This document shows, piece by piece, positions 6,581-54,024 of a DNA stretch of 64,000 nucleotides (position 1 is the stretch's first letter; each line of letters starts with the position of its first letter). Location of the stretch: assembly GCA_951406725.2 (NCBI GenBank), contig OX597821.1, forward strand, positions 3,906,001 through 3,970,000, in the 5' to 3' direction. A program made the translations under genes and the position numbers. The notes beneath the pieces are model-generated. The model was given only the letters and a program-made list of their open reading frames with translations. It was not told the origin of the DNA and ran no database searches. This stretch comes from Octopus vulgaris. Lineage: Eukaryota.

Positions 6581-6775
6581 TACAAGCAGTAAATGATACA
6601 TAGAATTTGACCACATTTTCCACTGTGTATTTCTGTCCCCATTTCTTCCTAAAAACACACCGACTTGTTTCTCCATCCATCTATTTTGGAAACGAGTCGG
6701 TGTGTTTTTAGAAAGAAATGGGGAAATACACAGTGGAAATTGTGGTCAAATTCTATGTATCATTTACTGCTTGTA
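6581..6775. repeat. Fold-back palindrome, ~90-bp arms, ~17-nt loop
   Basis: 6581-6671 is the reverse complement of 6689-6775, apart from a few substitutions and one small indel. Confidence 0.95.
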
Positions 6776-7385
6776 AGGTTCGTAGTCATATATAAACTTT
6801 TACTAAGAAGTGTTTAGTGTCCACATGTGAAGTGAGGATATCGTCAGAGGGAGTGAGATCATGTGTTTGAAATTCAAATTAATTTAAAATAGAATGGCGA
6901 TATATATATATATATATATATATATATATATATATATATATATATATATATATGAAAGAAAACCCCTTCGTATAGGGGAGACAATTTGGGGACTTCTACC
7001 TCTTATGAGATAAGTACCCCTTTTCATTTGTTTAATTTCCCGTAATTCAATGTAAGGACCTATGCTCTGTTTACATTCTGTTACTAATCTTTCTTTCTCT
7101 GTTTCAGCTCCGTTTCTCAATACATCTCTTTAAAATTATTCAATTGTAGATAGGCATTTTTTTGCTTTATTTATATTTATATATATATATATATATATAT
7201 ATATATATATATATATATATATATATTTACTCAGCCCCTCAATCTCCCTAAATATATATACGCGAACACTAGAGATATAGTCGCAATTAGTTTAGTTTAG
7301 AAGAAAACGTTTGTACCTACGGACAGGTGTATATTTATAATTTACATTCTGTTAATGGTCTTTCAATTTCTGTTTCAGCTTCGTA

Positions 7386-7930
7386 ACCTCCTCTCTTTCT
7401 TTTCTTTCTCTCTCTGTCTCTTCACTTCTCTCTATCACACCATCTTTCTTCTCTCAGCCGCTCAATCTTCCTCACTTTCTCCTCGTCTTCTCTCAGCCGC
7501 TCAATCTTTTGCATCACAGCCGCTCAATCTTCCTCACTTTCTCCTTGTCTTCTCTCAGCCGCTCAATCTTTTGCATCACTTCCTGTCTTTCATCTCTTTC
7601 TCTATCACACCATCTTTCTTCTCTCAGCCTCTCAATCTTCCTCAATATATAGACTCTCTTTCACTCTCTTCTTATCTTCTCTCAACCGCTCAATATTTTG
7701 CATAACCTCCTCTCTTTCATTTCTTTCTCTCTCTGTCTCTTCACTTCTCTCCCTCACGCCTCTTTCCTTGTCTATTCACTTCTTCACTTCTCTCTGTCGC
7801 ACCATCTTTCCTCTCTCAGCCTCTCAATTTTTCTAAATATATAGACGCGAACTTTCTTCTCTTACTCTCTTTTTATCTTCTCTGAGCTCTCAATCTCTCT
7901 AAATACATAGACACTTTCTTTCTTTATTTC
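7386..7930 (+). repeat. Pyrimidine-rich minisatellite with core CTCTCAGCCGCTCAATCTT
   Basis: The core recurs about eight times with variable CT-rich spacers. Confidence 0.85.
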
Positions 7931-8012
7931 TTCTCTACTCTCTATCGCACTATGAAAATTTAAATATAATTAGATAGATAAATAAATAAAATATCCAAAA
8001 TATCCAGAATTT

Positions 8013-9035
8013 GTGTTGTTCCAGGGAGCCTGGCAATGCGCCGACGGAGATAGTCCGAACAACATAAATACAGCTGCGCTGAAGAGCAGTGGATATACAA
8101 GGACGATAGCAAGGCGGCGAGCTGGCAGAATCGTTAGCACGCCGGGCGAATTGCGTAGCCGTATTTCGTCTGCCGTTACGTGTTCTGGGTTCAAATTCCG
8201 CCGAGGTCGACTTTGCCTTTCATCCTTCCGGGGTCGATTAAATAAGTACCAGTTACGTTCTGGGGTCGATGTAATCGACTTAATCCCTTTGTCTGTCCTT
8301 GTTTGTCCCCTCTAAGTTTAGCCCCTTGTGAGTAGTAAAGAAATATATACAAGGACGATAGCGCAGATAGAGCGAAAGAATCAGGAGTTTATACGCTCCT
8401 ATGCACTCATTAGATCTCACATTGGCACGCTTGATGCCATCTTTGACAACGAACACAGTAAATATGGCAAGGATGGAGGCACGGGTGCTGATGAAAGATG
8501 TCACCACCACTTGGTAGACACACAGGACAACAACAAAGAAGATTCAAGTGAGAAACTTGCCCGGGAAGTAAACCCAAGTGCAAGTTCCCCTACCAGCACT
8601 AAAAGCCAAAACCATGGAGATGAAAGAGCCAAAAAAGAAGTAAAAGGAGAAAAAACTAAAAGAAAAACAAATGATGAAACAGCCAAATAAGGAAAAACTA
8701 AAACTCAAACAAAACCAAAATATGAAACAGCCAAGAATAGAAGCAAACCTGACTATCCATGTACCAAAAGGGATAGAATGAGACAGCGCACACGAATGTA
8801 TAAATTCTACCTGAAAGGTGTCTGCTGACATAGAAAGAAAGGTGCAGGCTGCCGTTTTGCACATCAAAGACCCTGCCACATAAACATGAAACAGGTCAGA
8901 AACCAACTACAAAAATGAAAAGGAATGGACCACGCACCACCTGCCCCAAAACGGAGGTACACAGATGTAGTGCGTGCTACAAACCACCAACATGTTATTG
9001 AAAGGGCAGTTGCTGAACAAGAATCTTTTTTTGTG
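8013..9035 (+). pseudogene. LINE ORF1 remnant with CCCH-type zinc finger
   Basis: Removing the SINE and one TSD restores ...KSSGYTRTIA/QIERKNQEFIRS... in frame. The same frame reads YKFYLKGVC*HRKKGAGCRFAHQRPC at 8799-8876 and carries in-frame stops. Confidence 0.7.
8111..8344 (+). mobile_element. SINE family A monomer inserted in LINE ORF1
   Basis: A box-like TGGCAGAATCGTT, B box-like GGTTCAAATTCC, and an 18-bp TSD ATATACAAGGACGATAGC at 8093-8110 and 8345-8362. Confidence 0.95.
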
Positions 9036-9174
9036 CATGACACAAAAGATTGTACAGCAGCTAACCTGGCTCCATCAAACTCAAACTCGCAGATGGGACT
9101 ATCCACAATACACAAAACCGCCACAGCAAATAGACCCAAGGTGGACACCACCGGCAACAGCATACACATCACAT

Positions 9175-51311: not shown

Positions 51312-51356
51312 TGAGCTAGTACTTTCATGCATTAAATTCTGCAATCTTCAGGTTCA
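51312..51356 (-). ncRNA. Minimal type I hammerhead ribozyme
   Basis: Minus strand: UGAAC-CUGAAGA-UUGCA[GAAUUUAA]UGCAU-GAAA-GUAC-UA-GCUCA. Intact core and palindromic stem III; one stem I mismatch and U.U at the base of stem II. Confidence 0.75.
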
Positions 51357-51783
51357 TGTAGTAGTTGTGACAGTCATGCTTCACAATTTTTGACTGTGGC
51401 GAGATGATTAAATCCATGCCTTAAATACAGCTGTATAGACTCCAGATTGCTAGGTTTTGCAAACTGTATTCTGACCTATCAGTGTGTAGTATCACTCAAT
51501 TACTTAAGCTGATTGGTTGGTTGATTTGATTGGTTTAGGCGTCACGCTTTGTTGGACATATCAAGAGTCCTGTATCTTAACCCTGGCCGAGGCAGCAATT
51601 GTTGGGTTATTTTTAGAAATGTTGTAAATAGCCTTTGTCAGAGATTTTTATATTTTTATATTTCAATTGTCATCATCATCATCATTGTCAGCACCTTAAT
51701 AATTTGTTGCTGGTGGTGATGGTGGTGGCAATAGAACTTTTAACCCTAAATAAGATAATTTTCCTGCTATCTAAGTATCATTA

Positions 51784-52220
51784 TTATTGCTTATTTAGCT
51801 TGGGTTCGAATTTATCAATAAAATTCTTTTCTCTGATTTTCCTGTCGATTTCACTTGGGCTGTGTAATTTGTAGAATGGAAATATTATATATATTTTCCG
51901 ACCACGTGTTGCTAGGTGGTTACTCAAATGTATCTTCCCGACCTCTGGGTCTCTAATCTGTTGTCGGTGTACGCGTGAGCGTTCTGATAGTGCATTTCCC
52001 GTCTGACCTACATATATTTCTTCACAATTCGGGCATTTGATGCAGTAAATTAAATTTTTGCTTTTGCAGTTCATATTCACGTTTGTGAATATTTTCCCGG
52101 TTTTTGTGTTTATATATTGGCCGGTATGTATGAATTGGCATGTGCCACAGCGGCTATCATTTCATTTAGATACAGTGAATGTTTGGTCTTTGTTGCTAAG
52201 GTAAAATTTTGCCTTTGTTA
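51784..52220 (-). pseudogene. Penelope-type GIY-YIG endonuclease with upstream Cys linker
   Basis: ..SK*NDSRCGTC..MNCKSKNLIYCIKCPNCEEIYVGQTGNALSERSRVHR..IREKNFIDKFEPKLN*. Confidence 0.88.
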
Positions 52221-52221
52221 G

Positions 52222-52458
52222 TATATTGAAAAGGCATGGAAGAGATACGTTGACGACTGCTTCATAATCTGGACAGAATCTCTAAATACCCTGGAAGAGT
52301 TCAATATCCTCCTGAACAACCTACACCGATCTCTCCAATTTACAAAGGAGATGAGTAGTACCAAATTACCATTCCTAGATATAATGGTAATTAAAAAAGA
52401 CACCACCATCACCACAGATATATACTATAAACACACAGCAGCACATCAATACCTAAAT
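52222..52458 (+). pseudogene. Penelope-type reverse transcriptase segment (inverted)
   Basis: YIEKAWKRYVDDCFIIW..LNNLHRSLQFTKE..LPFLDIMV..TDIYYKHTAAHQYLN in one open frame. Confidence 0.88.
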
Positions 52459-54024
52459 GCAACCAGGCATTTTGCGATACTTTTAAAACAGAAACCCACC
52501 ATAACTACGTATGCGTGTGCGCGTGTGCATGTTTATGTGTGTGTGCGTGTGTGTTAAATAAAATAACACAACAAAGCCAGGCAGTGTTAAATTTCTAGGA
52601 ACTTTATAAAAAAAGGTAGTCTTGCAGCTGTTTCAGGTATATAAAAGATGTAAAATAAGTTATTTTGGAAAGGGAGAGATGTAAGAAGTATAAAGGGAAA
52701 TATAAGAATTATAATATATATGTTGGACATTGAAGTTGCTATTCCATTATCCAATGAATGTGCCGTGTAGAATGGATAAAGAGGCATCTTCATGGTATGT
52801 AAAATCCGATAGGAGTTCATATTTTGTTATTTATAAATGGATAGTGTACAGATATTAATTCTATGTGGTGTTCATTCAAAGGGATCTTGTAGTATAAATA
52901 AAATGTTGAGAATATACTGGTGGGAGGGGGAATAGAGAGAAGAGAATAGAAAAGGATAGATAAGAATGTTAAAAGGAAGAAAAATGGTGTTGGTCAAAAA
53001 GATTATGGGAAGAAAAACAAGAAACAAAGAAATAGATAGAGAAAAGGAAAAAGAGAGTGCTAGGTGGTGGTCAAGATATTGTGAGGGTGGGGGGAGGAGA
53101 GCTATCAGTAGATAAAAGGAACATGAGGCGGGATAGAAGGAAGAGATAAGAATGTAAAGAAGGAACATGTGTGAGAAGTGCTGGGGGTGAGGTGATATGT
53201 TTGAAAAGGCAATAAGGTGGGGGGATAAAGAAAGTGGTGCGGAGGGGGTACTAGAGGCGCTAATCGTGGATTGTTCTGACTACCTCCTTCTTCTTAACAC
53301 CCCCCCCCACACAGACAGACACACGGACACAGACACACATACACATACATACATACATATATTTACATGTATTCATGTGTGCATGTGTGTTCGTGTGTGT
53401 TTATATAAGCACGCTTGAGCACAATCACACTCACATTTATTACTTTCATTCTCTGAATCTGAGAGAACGAGAATTAAAACTTAAAACTCAAAATATGGAC
53501 AGTATGTTTATTACAAACTACCCATATGGAATATGGGTATATGTTTATTACATATAAAATTGATGTCATATTTAACAGTCGTTTTCAGCGTTGTGAATGT
53601 CCCCGCACAGGTTTCTCCTCTGCTCGTACAGTCAGGAACGATTTCACTCGTATATCTGTTATGTCCAAACAACCAGTAGTATATAGGTAAGTTGGTTTTT
53701 ATTCGTTGCATGTTAACTCATTTCGCAGTTCTCTGGTAGTGAGAGAAATACCTCTACAGCCAGTTGTATGTCCGGATCGTCAGAGATTTATTATACAAGT
53801 GGTCACCATAAAATATTTGTCACCTGAAAATATTTGAAAATATGCTTACAAGAAACACTATGGGATAAGAGATCCACTGTTAAAAGGATCAACCCGATTA
53901 GAGCTATCTTGAAATGACATGTACACTTAAAAATTCAGAGATGTTGGTAAACATGCGTTAAATTTATTGAGAGTAAAGTAAGTTTCAGATCTCTTTAAAG
54001 TAAATCTTATATTTCTTATATTTC

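What the first reader, a model, noticed from the sequence alone, without database searches (positions are those of the whole stretch)
6581..52800. Recurring module: non-coding fold-back elements with hammerhead-type cores, embedded in microsatellites
Seen: sequence-unrelated long inverted repeats at 6581-6775, 15023-15148, 18037-18305, 37262-37783, 13875/15449 and 941/1471; two intact hammerheads (13595, 51312); hammerhead-like remnants beside or within several fold-backs (CUGACGA at 6841-6847 minus, CUGAUAA at ~14963-14969 minus, CUGAACGA at 18004 plus, both arms of 37262). Known: Penelope-like elements carry minimal type I hammerheads in pseudo-LTRs and often leave inverted pseudo-LTRs; coleoid cephalopods have abundant ADAR editing. 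Inference: a diverse population of short non-autonomous ribozyme/hairpin elements mobilised by Penelope RT seeds self-cleavage sites and dsRNA in introns. This is the best candidate for an undescribed system here.
Basis: partly seen in the sequence, partly recalled or inferred. Interest (0 to 1): 0.75.

Follow-up and report, generated by a model that had tools for sequence, protein, structure and literature searches.

The report
Penelope fold-backs, including spliced hammerhead copies
Most of these mirror-image repeats are ordinary broken ends of a known class of jumping genes (Penelope-like elements) that carry a small, predicted self-cutting RNA, but one family has many copies that lack its intron and all stop at the likely start of its message, which would help explain how these elements are copied.

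Summary
The inverted repeats and both hammerheads are real, but they are not one undescribed system. Four of six fold-backs belong to high-copy hammerhead families with the published Penelope-like (PLE) footprint: fixed 3' ends, an inverted truncated copy, a one-sided tail, (TA)n targets, TSDs. 37205-37860 and 51153-52458 are truncated ends of protein-coding PLEs; 17993-18303 is a 354-nt retrozyme-type element with a 14-bp TSD; 609-1471 has a degraded SGC-order hammerhead. 6581-6775 has no second copy found; 13873/15447 are LINE scraps. The 'remnants' at 6847, 14969 and 18004 are not hammerheads. The window is ordinary: 5 fold-backs against 7 per 64 kb in an 800-kb sample. The interesting part is the 13595 family: 47 exact spliced against 50 unspliced junctions genome-wide; 0 of 52 spliced arms run more than 5 nt past a likely start site; 20 of 20 arm pairs share splice state; in 9 of 34 fold-backs neither arm can have templated the other. 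This points to two primings on sense RNA. No usable RNA evidence; introns and editing untested. The scan already noted spliced PLE fold-backs (another genome), and retrozymes and SGC hammerheads (this genome).

The parts
609..1471 (.). Family F insertion: 609-1011(-) head-to-head with 1012-1471(+); about 0.76-0.84-kb tandem unit in relatives; the 943/1469 repeat is the overlap of a more-than-unit-length copy whose 5' part is inverted
   Evidence: (2078 first-look candidates)
1107..1172 (+). Decayed hammerhead in S-G-C (non-circularly permuted) order; window copy has CAAA for GAAA
   Evidence: 14 of 20 loci keep core words and three stems; definition in PMC10085705 section 13
6581..6900 (.). 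Fold-back 6581-6775 plus 125-nt one-sided extension between two (TA)n tracts; no second copy found; no hammerhead
13397..13691 (-). Family A: spliced, start-site-bounded copy of a PLE pseudo-LTR in (TA)n; likely start 13690, exon junction 13663/13662, short 3' end about 13479, long 3' end about 13405
13595..13655 (-). Minimal type I hammerhead (CUGAAGA, GAAA, palindromic CGAUCG, UA; predicted cut between 13601 and 13600)
13873..13964 (-). Old LINE-like RT C-terminal scrap, inverted partner of 15359-15447; not a hammerhead element
   Evidence: 5 candidates; WYEHVL..DHPTRAL frame in L212 and at 15359; LINE label is my reading of the motif
15359..15447 (+). Second LINE-like scrap
14945..15148 (-). 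Family B fold-back: main arm 14945-15086, inverted arm 15085-15148, about 78-nt tail; truncated before the family hammerhead
   Evidence: 1314 candidates; 13 of 29 relatives have the inverted arm, all without tail
17993..18303 (-). Family C fold-back (354-355-nt retrozyme-type unit) with internal 56-bp duplication and about 45-nt tail; truncated before the family hammerhead
   Evidence: (1734 candidates)
17979..17992 (+). 14-bp target-site duplication, left copy
18304..18317 (+). 14-bp target-site duplication, right copy
37205..37860 (.). Family D: old fold-back of the 3' UTR/pLTR of a coding PLE; inverted arm 37205-37464, main arm 37466-37860; decayed hammerheads at 37320-37351(-) and 37693-37724(+)
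   Evidence: 925 candidates; endonuclease end directly upstream in 19 of 29 relatives
51153..52458 (-). 5'-truncated copy of a young 4271-bp two-ORF PLE: 3' UTR, GIY-YIG 51787-52161, and an inverted RT piece 52220-52458(+)
51312..51356 (-). Minimal type I hammerhead in that 3' UTR, one stem I mismatch

Best explanation
Four of the six fold-backs and both hammerheads are short, mostly 5'-truncated ends of several unrelated high-copy hammerhead-bearing repeat families with the Penelope-like insertion footprint, likely made when a Penelope enzyme nicked both strands of an AT-rich target and copied RNA twice from two fixed internal start points, the two cDNAs then likely joining head to head. Shown: fixed long and short 3' ends, one of each per fold-back; variable centres; TSDs; linkage of families A, D and the 51312 family to GIY-YIG frames; a 354-355-nt tandem unit in C. 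Inferred: the two-priming mechanism (matches in vitro work on a lizard PLE), trans-mobilisation of C, F and B, and ribozyme activity. In family A about half of the copies that span the splice point lack a 946-nt GT..AG intron and stop at a likely transcription start, so they are likely run-off copies of the 5' end of the spliced sense message (dead by-products), whereas intron-keeping copies are likely ordinary truncations primed in the downstream pLTR. A second pile-up of 5' ends just after the predicted cut may reflect self-cleaved RNA or RT stalling at stem I. The 6581 fold-back and the 13873/15447 pair do not belong to this.
For: Family A: 34 of 36 abutting fold-backs scored long+short (one of these, L262, has only a fragment as short arm), and in 9 of 34 the short-ended arm reaches further 5' than the long-ended arm; 47 spliced and 50 unspliced exact junctions, 0 reversed controls; 0 of 52 spliced arms pass the Inr-like TTAGTT by more than 5 nt, mode +1 (11 of 52), whereas 3 of 3 donor-bearing arms continue upstream (read from the printed flanks); 20 head-to-head pairs (19 insertions) are 14 spliced/spliced, 6 unspliced/unspliced, 0 mixed; GIY-YIG frame upstream in L158 and a 97% piece in L279/L280; 12 of 31 arms ending between -60 and +100 of the cut end at +1..+10, two exactly at +1. 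Family C: direct repeats of period 354-355 in 6 of 29 loci, TSD in 15 of 20. Family D: 19 of 29. Census: 15 type I hammerheads in 800 kb, 0 in reversed sequence; (TA)n beside 48 of 88 fold-backs against 19% of random sites. Literature: PMC8557442, PMC11167929, PMC4209133, PMC3846280.
Against: No RNA support: runs were only guessed RNA, contigs only, no exact spliced joint reported. Start site is inferred from copy ends and a recalled Inr consensus. No full-length family A copy found (no spliced and unspliced junction within 10 kb in the lists); its GIY-YIG scores 21.9 bits, under the 22.6 cut-off. One origin for all spliced copies is not rejected (p-AU 0.08, 69 of 83 arms used). The cut-site pile-up is absent in B (0 of 44 arms) and weak in C (2 of 58), and the query began at the cut, which biases the downstream side. 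No coding partner found for B, C or F. Loci were top-scoring hits, not random. Two of six inverted repeats do not fit.
Confidence: 0.85

Rival explanations
1. One reading: one undescribed, coherent population of short non-autonomous ribozyme/hairpin elements whose role is to seed cleavage sites and dsRNA in introns.
For: Hammerheads are enriched in fold-backs (6 of 15 against 1.4); C and F look non-coding and tandem; recurrent ends and TSDs exist.
Against: The architecture is published; D and the 51312 element are truncations of coding PLEs; 27 of 88 sampled fold-backs are merely neighbouring SINE-like copies; window copies of B and C lack their ribozyme and those of D and F are decayed; no host gene or RNA evidence.
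Confidence: 0.07
2. The spliced family A copies are a self-propagating non-autonomous subfamily descended from one spliced master rather than repeated by-products of the coding element.
For: One clade not rejected (p-AU 0.08); the label is somewhat clustered on the tree (2 of 500 shuffles as low); no full-length master found.
Against: Spliced and unspliced arms share at least three polymorphic columns, identical sequences occur in both classes, and distances within and between classes are equal (about 2.4-2.6%); no tandem spliced units seen; spliced copies lack the upstream promoter region.
Confidence: 0.2
3. Fold-backs arise by hairpin self-priming of one cDNA, or by DNA repair at (TA)n cruciforms, not by two primings on RNA.
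For: 15 of 34 pairs share a 5' end and 10 of 34 have the short arm inside the long arm; palindromic junctions; self-priming proposed in PMC3846280; best explanation for the single-copy 6581 fold-back.
Against: 9 of 34 pairs hold sequence unique to each arm; 10-14-bp TSDs in C; both strands are extended in vitro (PMC11167929).
Confidence: 0.15
4. They are MITEs or Foldback DNA transposons.
For: Short, non-coding, inverted arms, TA-rich targets.
Against: Ends asymmetric by a fixed tail, centres variable, solo arms and partial tandems common, hammerheads and GIY-YIG linkage, intron loss.
Confidence: 0.02

Closest known systems
Endonuclease-bearing Penelope-like elements with pLTR, inverted truncated copy and tail (PMC8557442 passages; PMC3846280 passages)
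   Same: Partial tandems, inverted 5'-truncated copy, one-sided tail, (TA)n bias, TSDs, hammerhead in pLTR, C-terminal GIY-YIG with a Cys linker as in Neptune/Nematis.
   Different: Tails here are 45-78 nt against 30-40 reported; family A has many intron-less, start-site-bounded copies, whereas these papers stress intron retention and PMC3846280 proposes an antisense template.
Anolis Poseidon PAc in vitro mechanism (PMC11167929, parts 1-2 of 4 read)
   Same: Two internal RT start sites define the tail; both target strands cut and extended; uncut RNA is a template.
   Different: That study found no RNA ends at the hammerhead cut; family A copies pile up just after it. It does not discuss spliced run-off copies in the text I read.
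Minimal type I hammerheads of metazoan PLEs (PMC4209133, parts 1-2 of 4 read)
   Same: Short stem I, long stem II with an unpaired first base, palindromic stem III, many sequence families per genome, pairs on opposite strands 100-700 bp apart.
   Different: Octopus-type families are not treated in what I read; most young copies of the 51312 family have CCGAAGA (37 of 42 matches).
Metazoan non-LTR retrozymes (PMC7229834 passages; bioRxiv 2026.07.22.740005 part 1 of 5 and passages)
   Same: Family C: about 354-nt non-coding unit, type I hammerhead, tandem copies.
   Different: Here mostly sub-dimer dispersed insertions with PLE-type inverted arm, tail and 10-14-bp TSD; circular RNA untested.
Type-SGC hammerheads (PMC10085705 abstract and section 13)
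   Same: Family F has S, G, C blocks in that order with three stems.
   Different: In an animal retroelement rather than metatranscriptome RNAs; no covariation test or cleavage here; window copy broken.

Membership tests
EN+ Penelope-like element | RT plus C-terminal GIY-YIG in one ORF | tested here: met
   775-aa ORF of the 51312 family, Pfam RVT_1 E 2e-6 (under cut-off) and GIY-YIG above cut-off; endonuclease upstream of D in 19 of 29; GIY-YIG only, under cut-off, for A
EN+ Penelope-like element | Coding partner for families B, C, F | tested here: inconclusive
   No collinear RT/EN in the 1.5-kb flanks held; flanks short
EN+ Penelope-like element | Minimal type I hammerhead in the pLTR | tested here: met
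   A 52 of 60 loci, 51312 family 28 of 30, C 14 of 30, B 8 of 30 loci with any hit (some from other families); D 10 of 29 core words
EN+ Penelope-like element | Inverted 5'-truncated copy and one-sided tail | tested here: met
   A 34 of 36; B 13 of 29 inverted arms, none with tail; C
EN+ Penelope-like element | Partial tandem / pLTR repeats | tested here: met
   4271-bp period; C 354-355, F about 760-836; none seen for A
EN+ Penelope-like element | Target-site duplication | tested here: met
   C: 15 of 20 scorable loci (10 of 30 had no inverted end), 3 of the 15 in (TA)n; control 23 of 380; not scorable in (TA)n for A, B, D
EN+ Penelope-like element | Intron retained in retrotransposed copies | tested here: inconclusive
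   Family A is split: 50 retained, 47 spliced exact junctions
Neptune/Nematis clade | CX2-5CxxC linker before GIY-YIG; clade placement | tested here: inconclusive
   Linker seen (CNDSRCGTC); no tree against reference clades
Non-LTR retrozyme (family C) | Short non-coding tandem unit with type I hammerhead | tested here: met
   longest stop-free frame 79 aa in one copy
Non-LTR retrozyme (family C) | Circular/linear monomer RNA in vivo | not testable with these tools
Type-SGC hammerhead (family F) | S, G, C blocks in order with stems I-III | tested here: met
   14 of 20 loci; not met in the window copy
Type-SGC hammerhead (family F) | Covariation and self-cleavage | not tested
   Copies too alike; scanner background for SGC was 2 reversed against 3 real
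MITE / Foldback DNA transposon | Fixed symmetric terminal inverted repeats | tested here: not met
   Asymmetric ends and variable centres

The most novel reading that the evidence does not exclude
Family A is a genomic read-out of the Penelope cycle: the enzyme primes twice on sense RNA, and copies end at three kinds of place (the start of the spliced message, the hammerhead cut, random points in unspliced downstream pLTR). Intron retention in PLEs would then follow from where on the message copying starts, not from an antisense template, and self-cleaved RNA would be a real template in vivo.
Probability: 0.55. Interest if true: 0.65.

Novelty: new variant of a known kind. Interest (0 to 1): 0.45.

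Why it matters
As posed, the finding is known Penelope biology in a genome that is rich in it (about 19 intact type I hammerheads per Mb in the sample). The value lies in family A: why PLEs keep introns, and how their inverted ends and tails form, are stated as open in PMC8557442 and PMC3846280. Hundreds of near-identical copies with scorable splice state and ends make both questions testable by counting and by 5' RACE. Family C adds a PLE insertion footprint to the claim that retrozymes are PLE-mobilised.

Tried and rejected
Rfam scan: the 150 of 343 rows shown were all below gathering score, almost all microsatellite/miRNA look-alikes, no hammerhead among them. First scanner missed minimal stem III; rewritten. 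MFE folding: none of 7 stretches beat shuffles, uninformative for minimal hammerheads. 6581: 1 candidate by DNA search, only its own two arms by a 27-mer with 3 mismatches, none in 940 kb of held sequence; the search skips common words, so rarity is not proven. Cap-derived extra G at family A 5' ends: ambiguous with junction microhomology, dropped. RNA: no RNA holder listed on record; contigs of guessed RNA runs cover the 3' part heavily, show no exact spliced joint and no start pile-up; one contig begins at the inferred start, too little to count. Host exon search: one Pfam hit E 0.002 under cut-off (BipA_C, 47512), no PDB support, taken as chance. First tree included flank noise and was redone on 69 of 83 arms. 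Chaining of unspliced copies broke at internal microsatellites, so their 5' ends are not reliably counted. A full-length family A element was not found; upstream DNA of the unspliced sites was not examined. Literature searches for spliced PLE copies, octopus PLE hammerheads and palindromic non-autonomous forms showed none; Arkhipova 2003/2006 and Evgen'ev 2005 were not read, and no supplements were read, so such copies may be in print.
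Full report
Setting. The window lies on contig C8 of a 2.8-Gb assembly of 227 contigs. It is microsatellite-rich (129 tandem rows) and holds LINE and SINE-like repeats.

Observation. A masked self-comparison finds all six inverted repeats. The 13595 motif is a complete minimal type I hammerhead on the minus strand; it is the only hit of a strict scanner, with 1 hit in 20 shuffled windows. 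The 51312 motif has all core words and one stem I mismatch against its family. Both arms at 37205-37860 hold decayed hammerheads. The words at 6847, 14969 and 18004 are not hammerheads; such relaxed words lie within 100 nt of 31% of random points. In 80 arbitrarily placed 10-kb stretches I found 88 fold-backs (7.0 per 64 kb; the window has 5 by the same rule) and 15 type I hammerheads against 0 in reversed sequence; 6 of 15 lie in or beside a fold-back against 1.4 expected. (TA)n flanks 48 of 88 fold-backs against 19% of random sites, and 27 of 88 are simply neighbouring SINE-like copies. So the association is real across the genome and the window is unremarkable.

What each element is. The 51312 hammerhead lies in the 3' UTR of a truncated copy of a young PLE: 150 of 16,907 candidates were scored, nearly all 94% identical, and the copies fetched show a 4271-bp tandem unit, a 454-aa and a 775-aa frame with RT and C-terminal GIY-YIG, and inverted partners. 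37205-37860 is an old fold-back of the 3' end of another coding PLE: an endonuclease end lies just upstream in 19 of 29 relatives. 14945-15148 (family B) and 17993-18303 (family C) belong to families with 1314 and 1734 first-look candidates whose hammerheads lie 5' of the point where the window copies break off. Family C has a 354-355-nt period in 6 of 29 relatives and TSDs in 15 of 20 scorable loci against 23 of 380 mismatched controls, 14 bp in the window: a retrozyme-type unit with a PLE footprint. 13873/15447 are old LINE-like RT scraps with 5 candidates. 6581-6775 has no second copy by DNA search or by a 27-mer with 3 mismatches; a local fold-back between (TA)n tracts is the simplest reading.

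Family A. The 13595 element has 678-1010 candidates, the best 94-98% identical over the full query. Copies end at one of two fixed 3' points about 75 nt apart, and 34 of 36 abutting fold-backs were scored as one of each (one of the 34 has only a fragment as short arm). Longer copies hold a 946-nt GT..AG intron 28 nt after an Inr-like TTAGTT (consensus recalled), and one has a GIY-YIG frame 1.1 kb further up. Exact junction counts are 47 spliced and 50 unspliced. None of 52 spliced arms runs more than 5 nt upstream of the Inr A, the mode is +1, and all 3 arms with the unspliced donor continue upstream. Of 20 head-to-head pairs (19 insertions) 14 are spliced on both arms, 6 unspliced on both, none mixed. 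That alone could come from copying one cDNA back on itself, but in 9 of 34 fold-backs the short-ended arm reaches further 5' than the long-ended one, so each arm holds sequence that the other lacks. Twelve of 31 arms ending within -60..+100 of the predicted cut end at +1..+10 (9 insertions; 11 arms in the 61 positions upstream), two exactly at +1; query bias and RT stalling at stem I are not excluded, and B and C show no such peak. Spliced and unspliced arms share polymorphisms and are equally distant (about 2.5%), but one clade is not rejected (p-AU 0.08, 69 of 83 arms).

Mechanism. Shown: end structure, TSDs, splice states, linkage to GIY-YIG frames. From the literature: a lizard PLE protein cuts and extends both strands of AT-rich DNA and starts at two internal RNA sites that define the tail (PMC11167929). 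Inferred: two primings give two cDNAs that join head to head; priming near the 5' end of the spliced message gives short run-off copies, priming in the downstream unspliced pLTR gives intron-keeping truncations; C, F and perhaps B are copied in trans. Ribozyme activity, transcription, intron location and editing are untested; RNA runs were unusable and no host exon was found.

Comparison. Inverted truncated copy, tail, (TA)n bias and non-autonomous pLTR-forming elements are in PMC8557442 (passages) and PMC3846280 (passages); minimal hammerheads, including opposite-strand pairs 100-700 bp apart, in PMC4209133 (parts 1-2 of 4); a start site and 5' intron inside the pLTR in PMC2377424 (passages); retrozymes in PMC7229834 (passages) and bioRxiv 2026.07.22.740005 (part 1 of 5 and passages); SGC hammerheads in PMC10085705 (abstract, section 13). 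I found no paper on abundant spliced, start-bounded PLE copies in seven searches, but older subscription papers and all supplements were not seen. This scan has noted a spliced Penelope fold-back in another genome (I had seen the intron) and retrozymes and rewired hammerheads in this one; these notes are not independent support.

Verdict. Real features, known class, heterogeneous list; not an undescribed system. Family A is a new variant worth following because it makes PLE intron retention and inverted-end formation countable. Interest 0.45.

Noticed in passing
L063-L067; window 51153-52458: Very young, abundant two-ORF PLE (4271-bp unit, 454-aa ORF of no Pfam family overlapping the 775-aa RT-EN ORF); tandem copies 99.98% identical; 37 of 42 hammerhead matches have a CCGAAGA core.
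   Followed up: partly
L008 1651-1723; L009 1288-1504: Family A fold-backs whose centre is a copy of host DNA from the nearby flank (template jump or repair patch).
   Followed up: no
window 6581-6900: Fold-back with about 90% arm identity, a 125-nt one-sided extension and (TA)n on both sides, but no other copy found in the assembly.
   Followed up: partly
L310:2509, L361:4994 and 7 more census fold-backs: A CCGAUGA-core hammerhead family gives 9 of 88 sampled fold-backs, 8 of 9 with (TA)n on both sides; probably the 359-nt element of earlier notes.
   Followed up: no
L347:1468(-), L359:9083(-): A second family with S-G-C ordered hammerhead words.
   Followed up: no
window 3411-3827, 8111-8345, 26399-27599, 32418-32559, 43247-43411, 46120-46506, 48009-48171; and 19884, 27834, 30599, 34280, 38768, 54037, 63617: Two abundant SINE-like families, several copies in partial tandem; the SINE label is recalled.
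   Followed up: no
window 8322-11926 and 15871-16881: LINE (AP endonuclease plus RT) copies; 9218-11353 has a 711-aa open frame with Pfam RVT_1 and Exo_endo_phos_2.
   Followed up: partly
window 63044-63565(-): Weak remnant of another PLE RT (27% to the 775-aa protein, E 6e-7).
   Followed up: no
L201 1380-1800 (family D) and the 51312 family 3' UTR: CCAAT, GC-box, TATA and Inr-like words just upstream of the hammerhead, read by eye: an upstream-type promoter rather than the internal one reported for Drosophila Penelope.
   Followed up: no
window 47512-47688(+): Pfam BipA_C hit E 0.002, below cut-off, no PDB support; taken as chance.
   Followed up: yes
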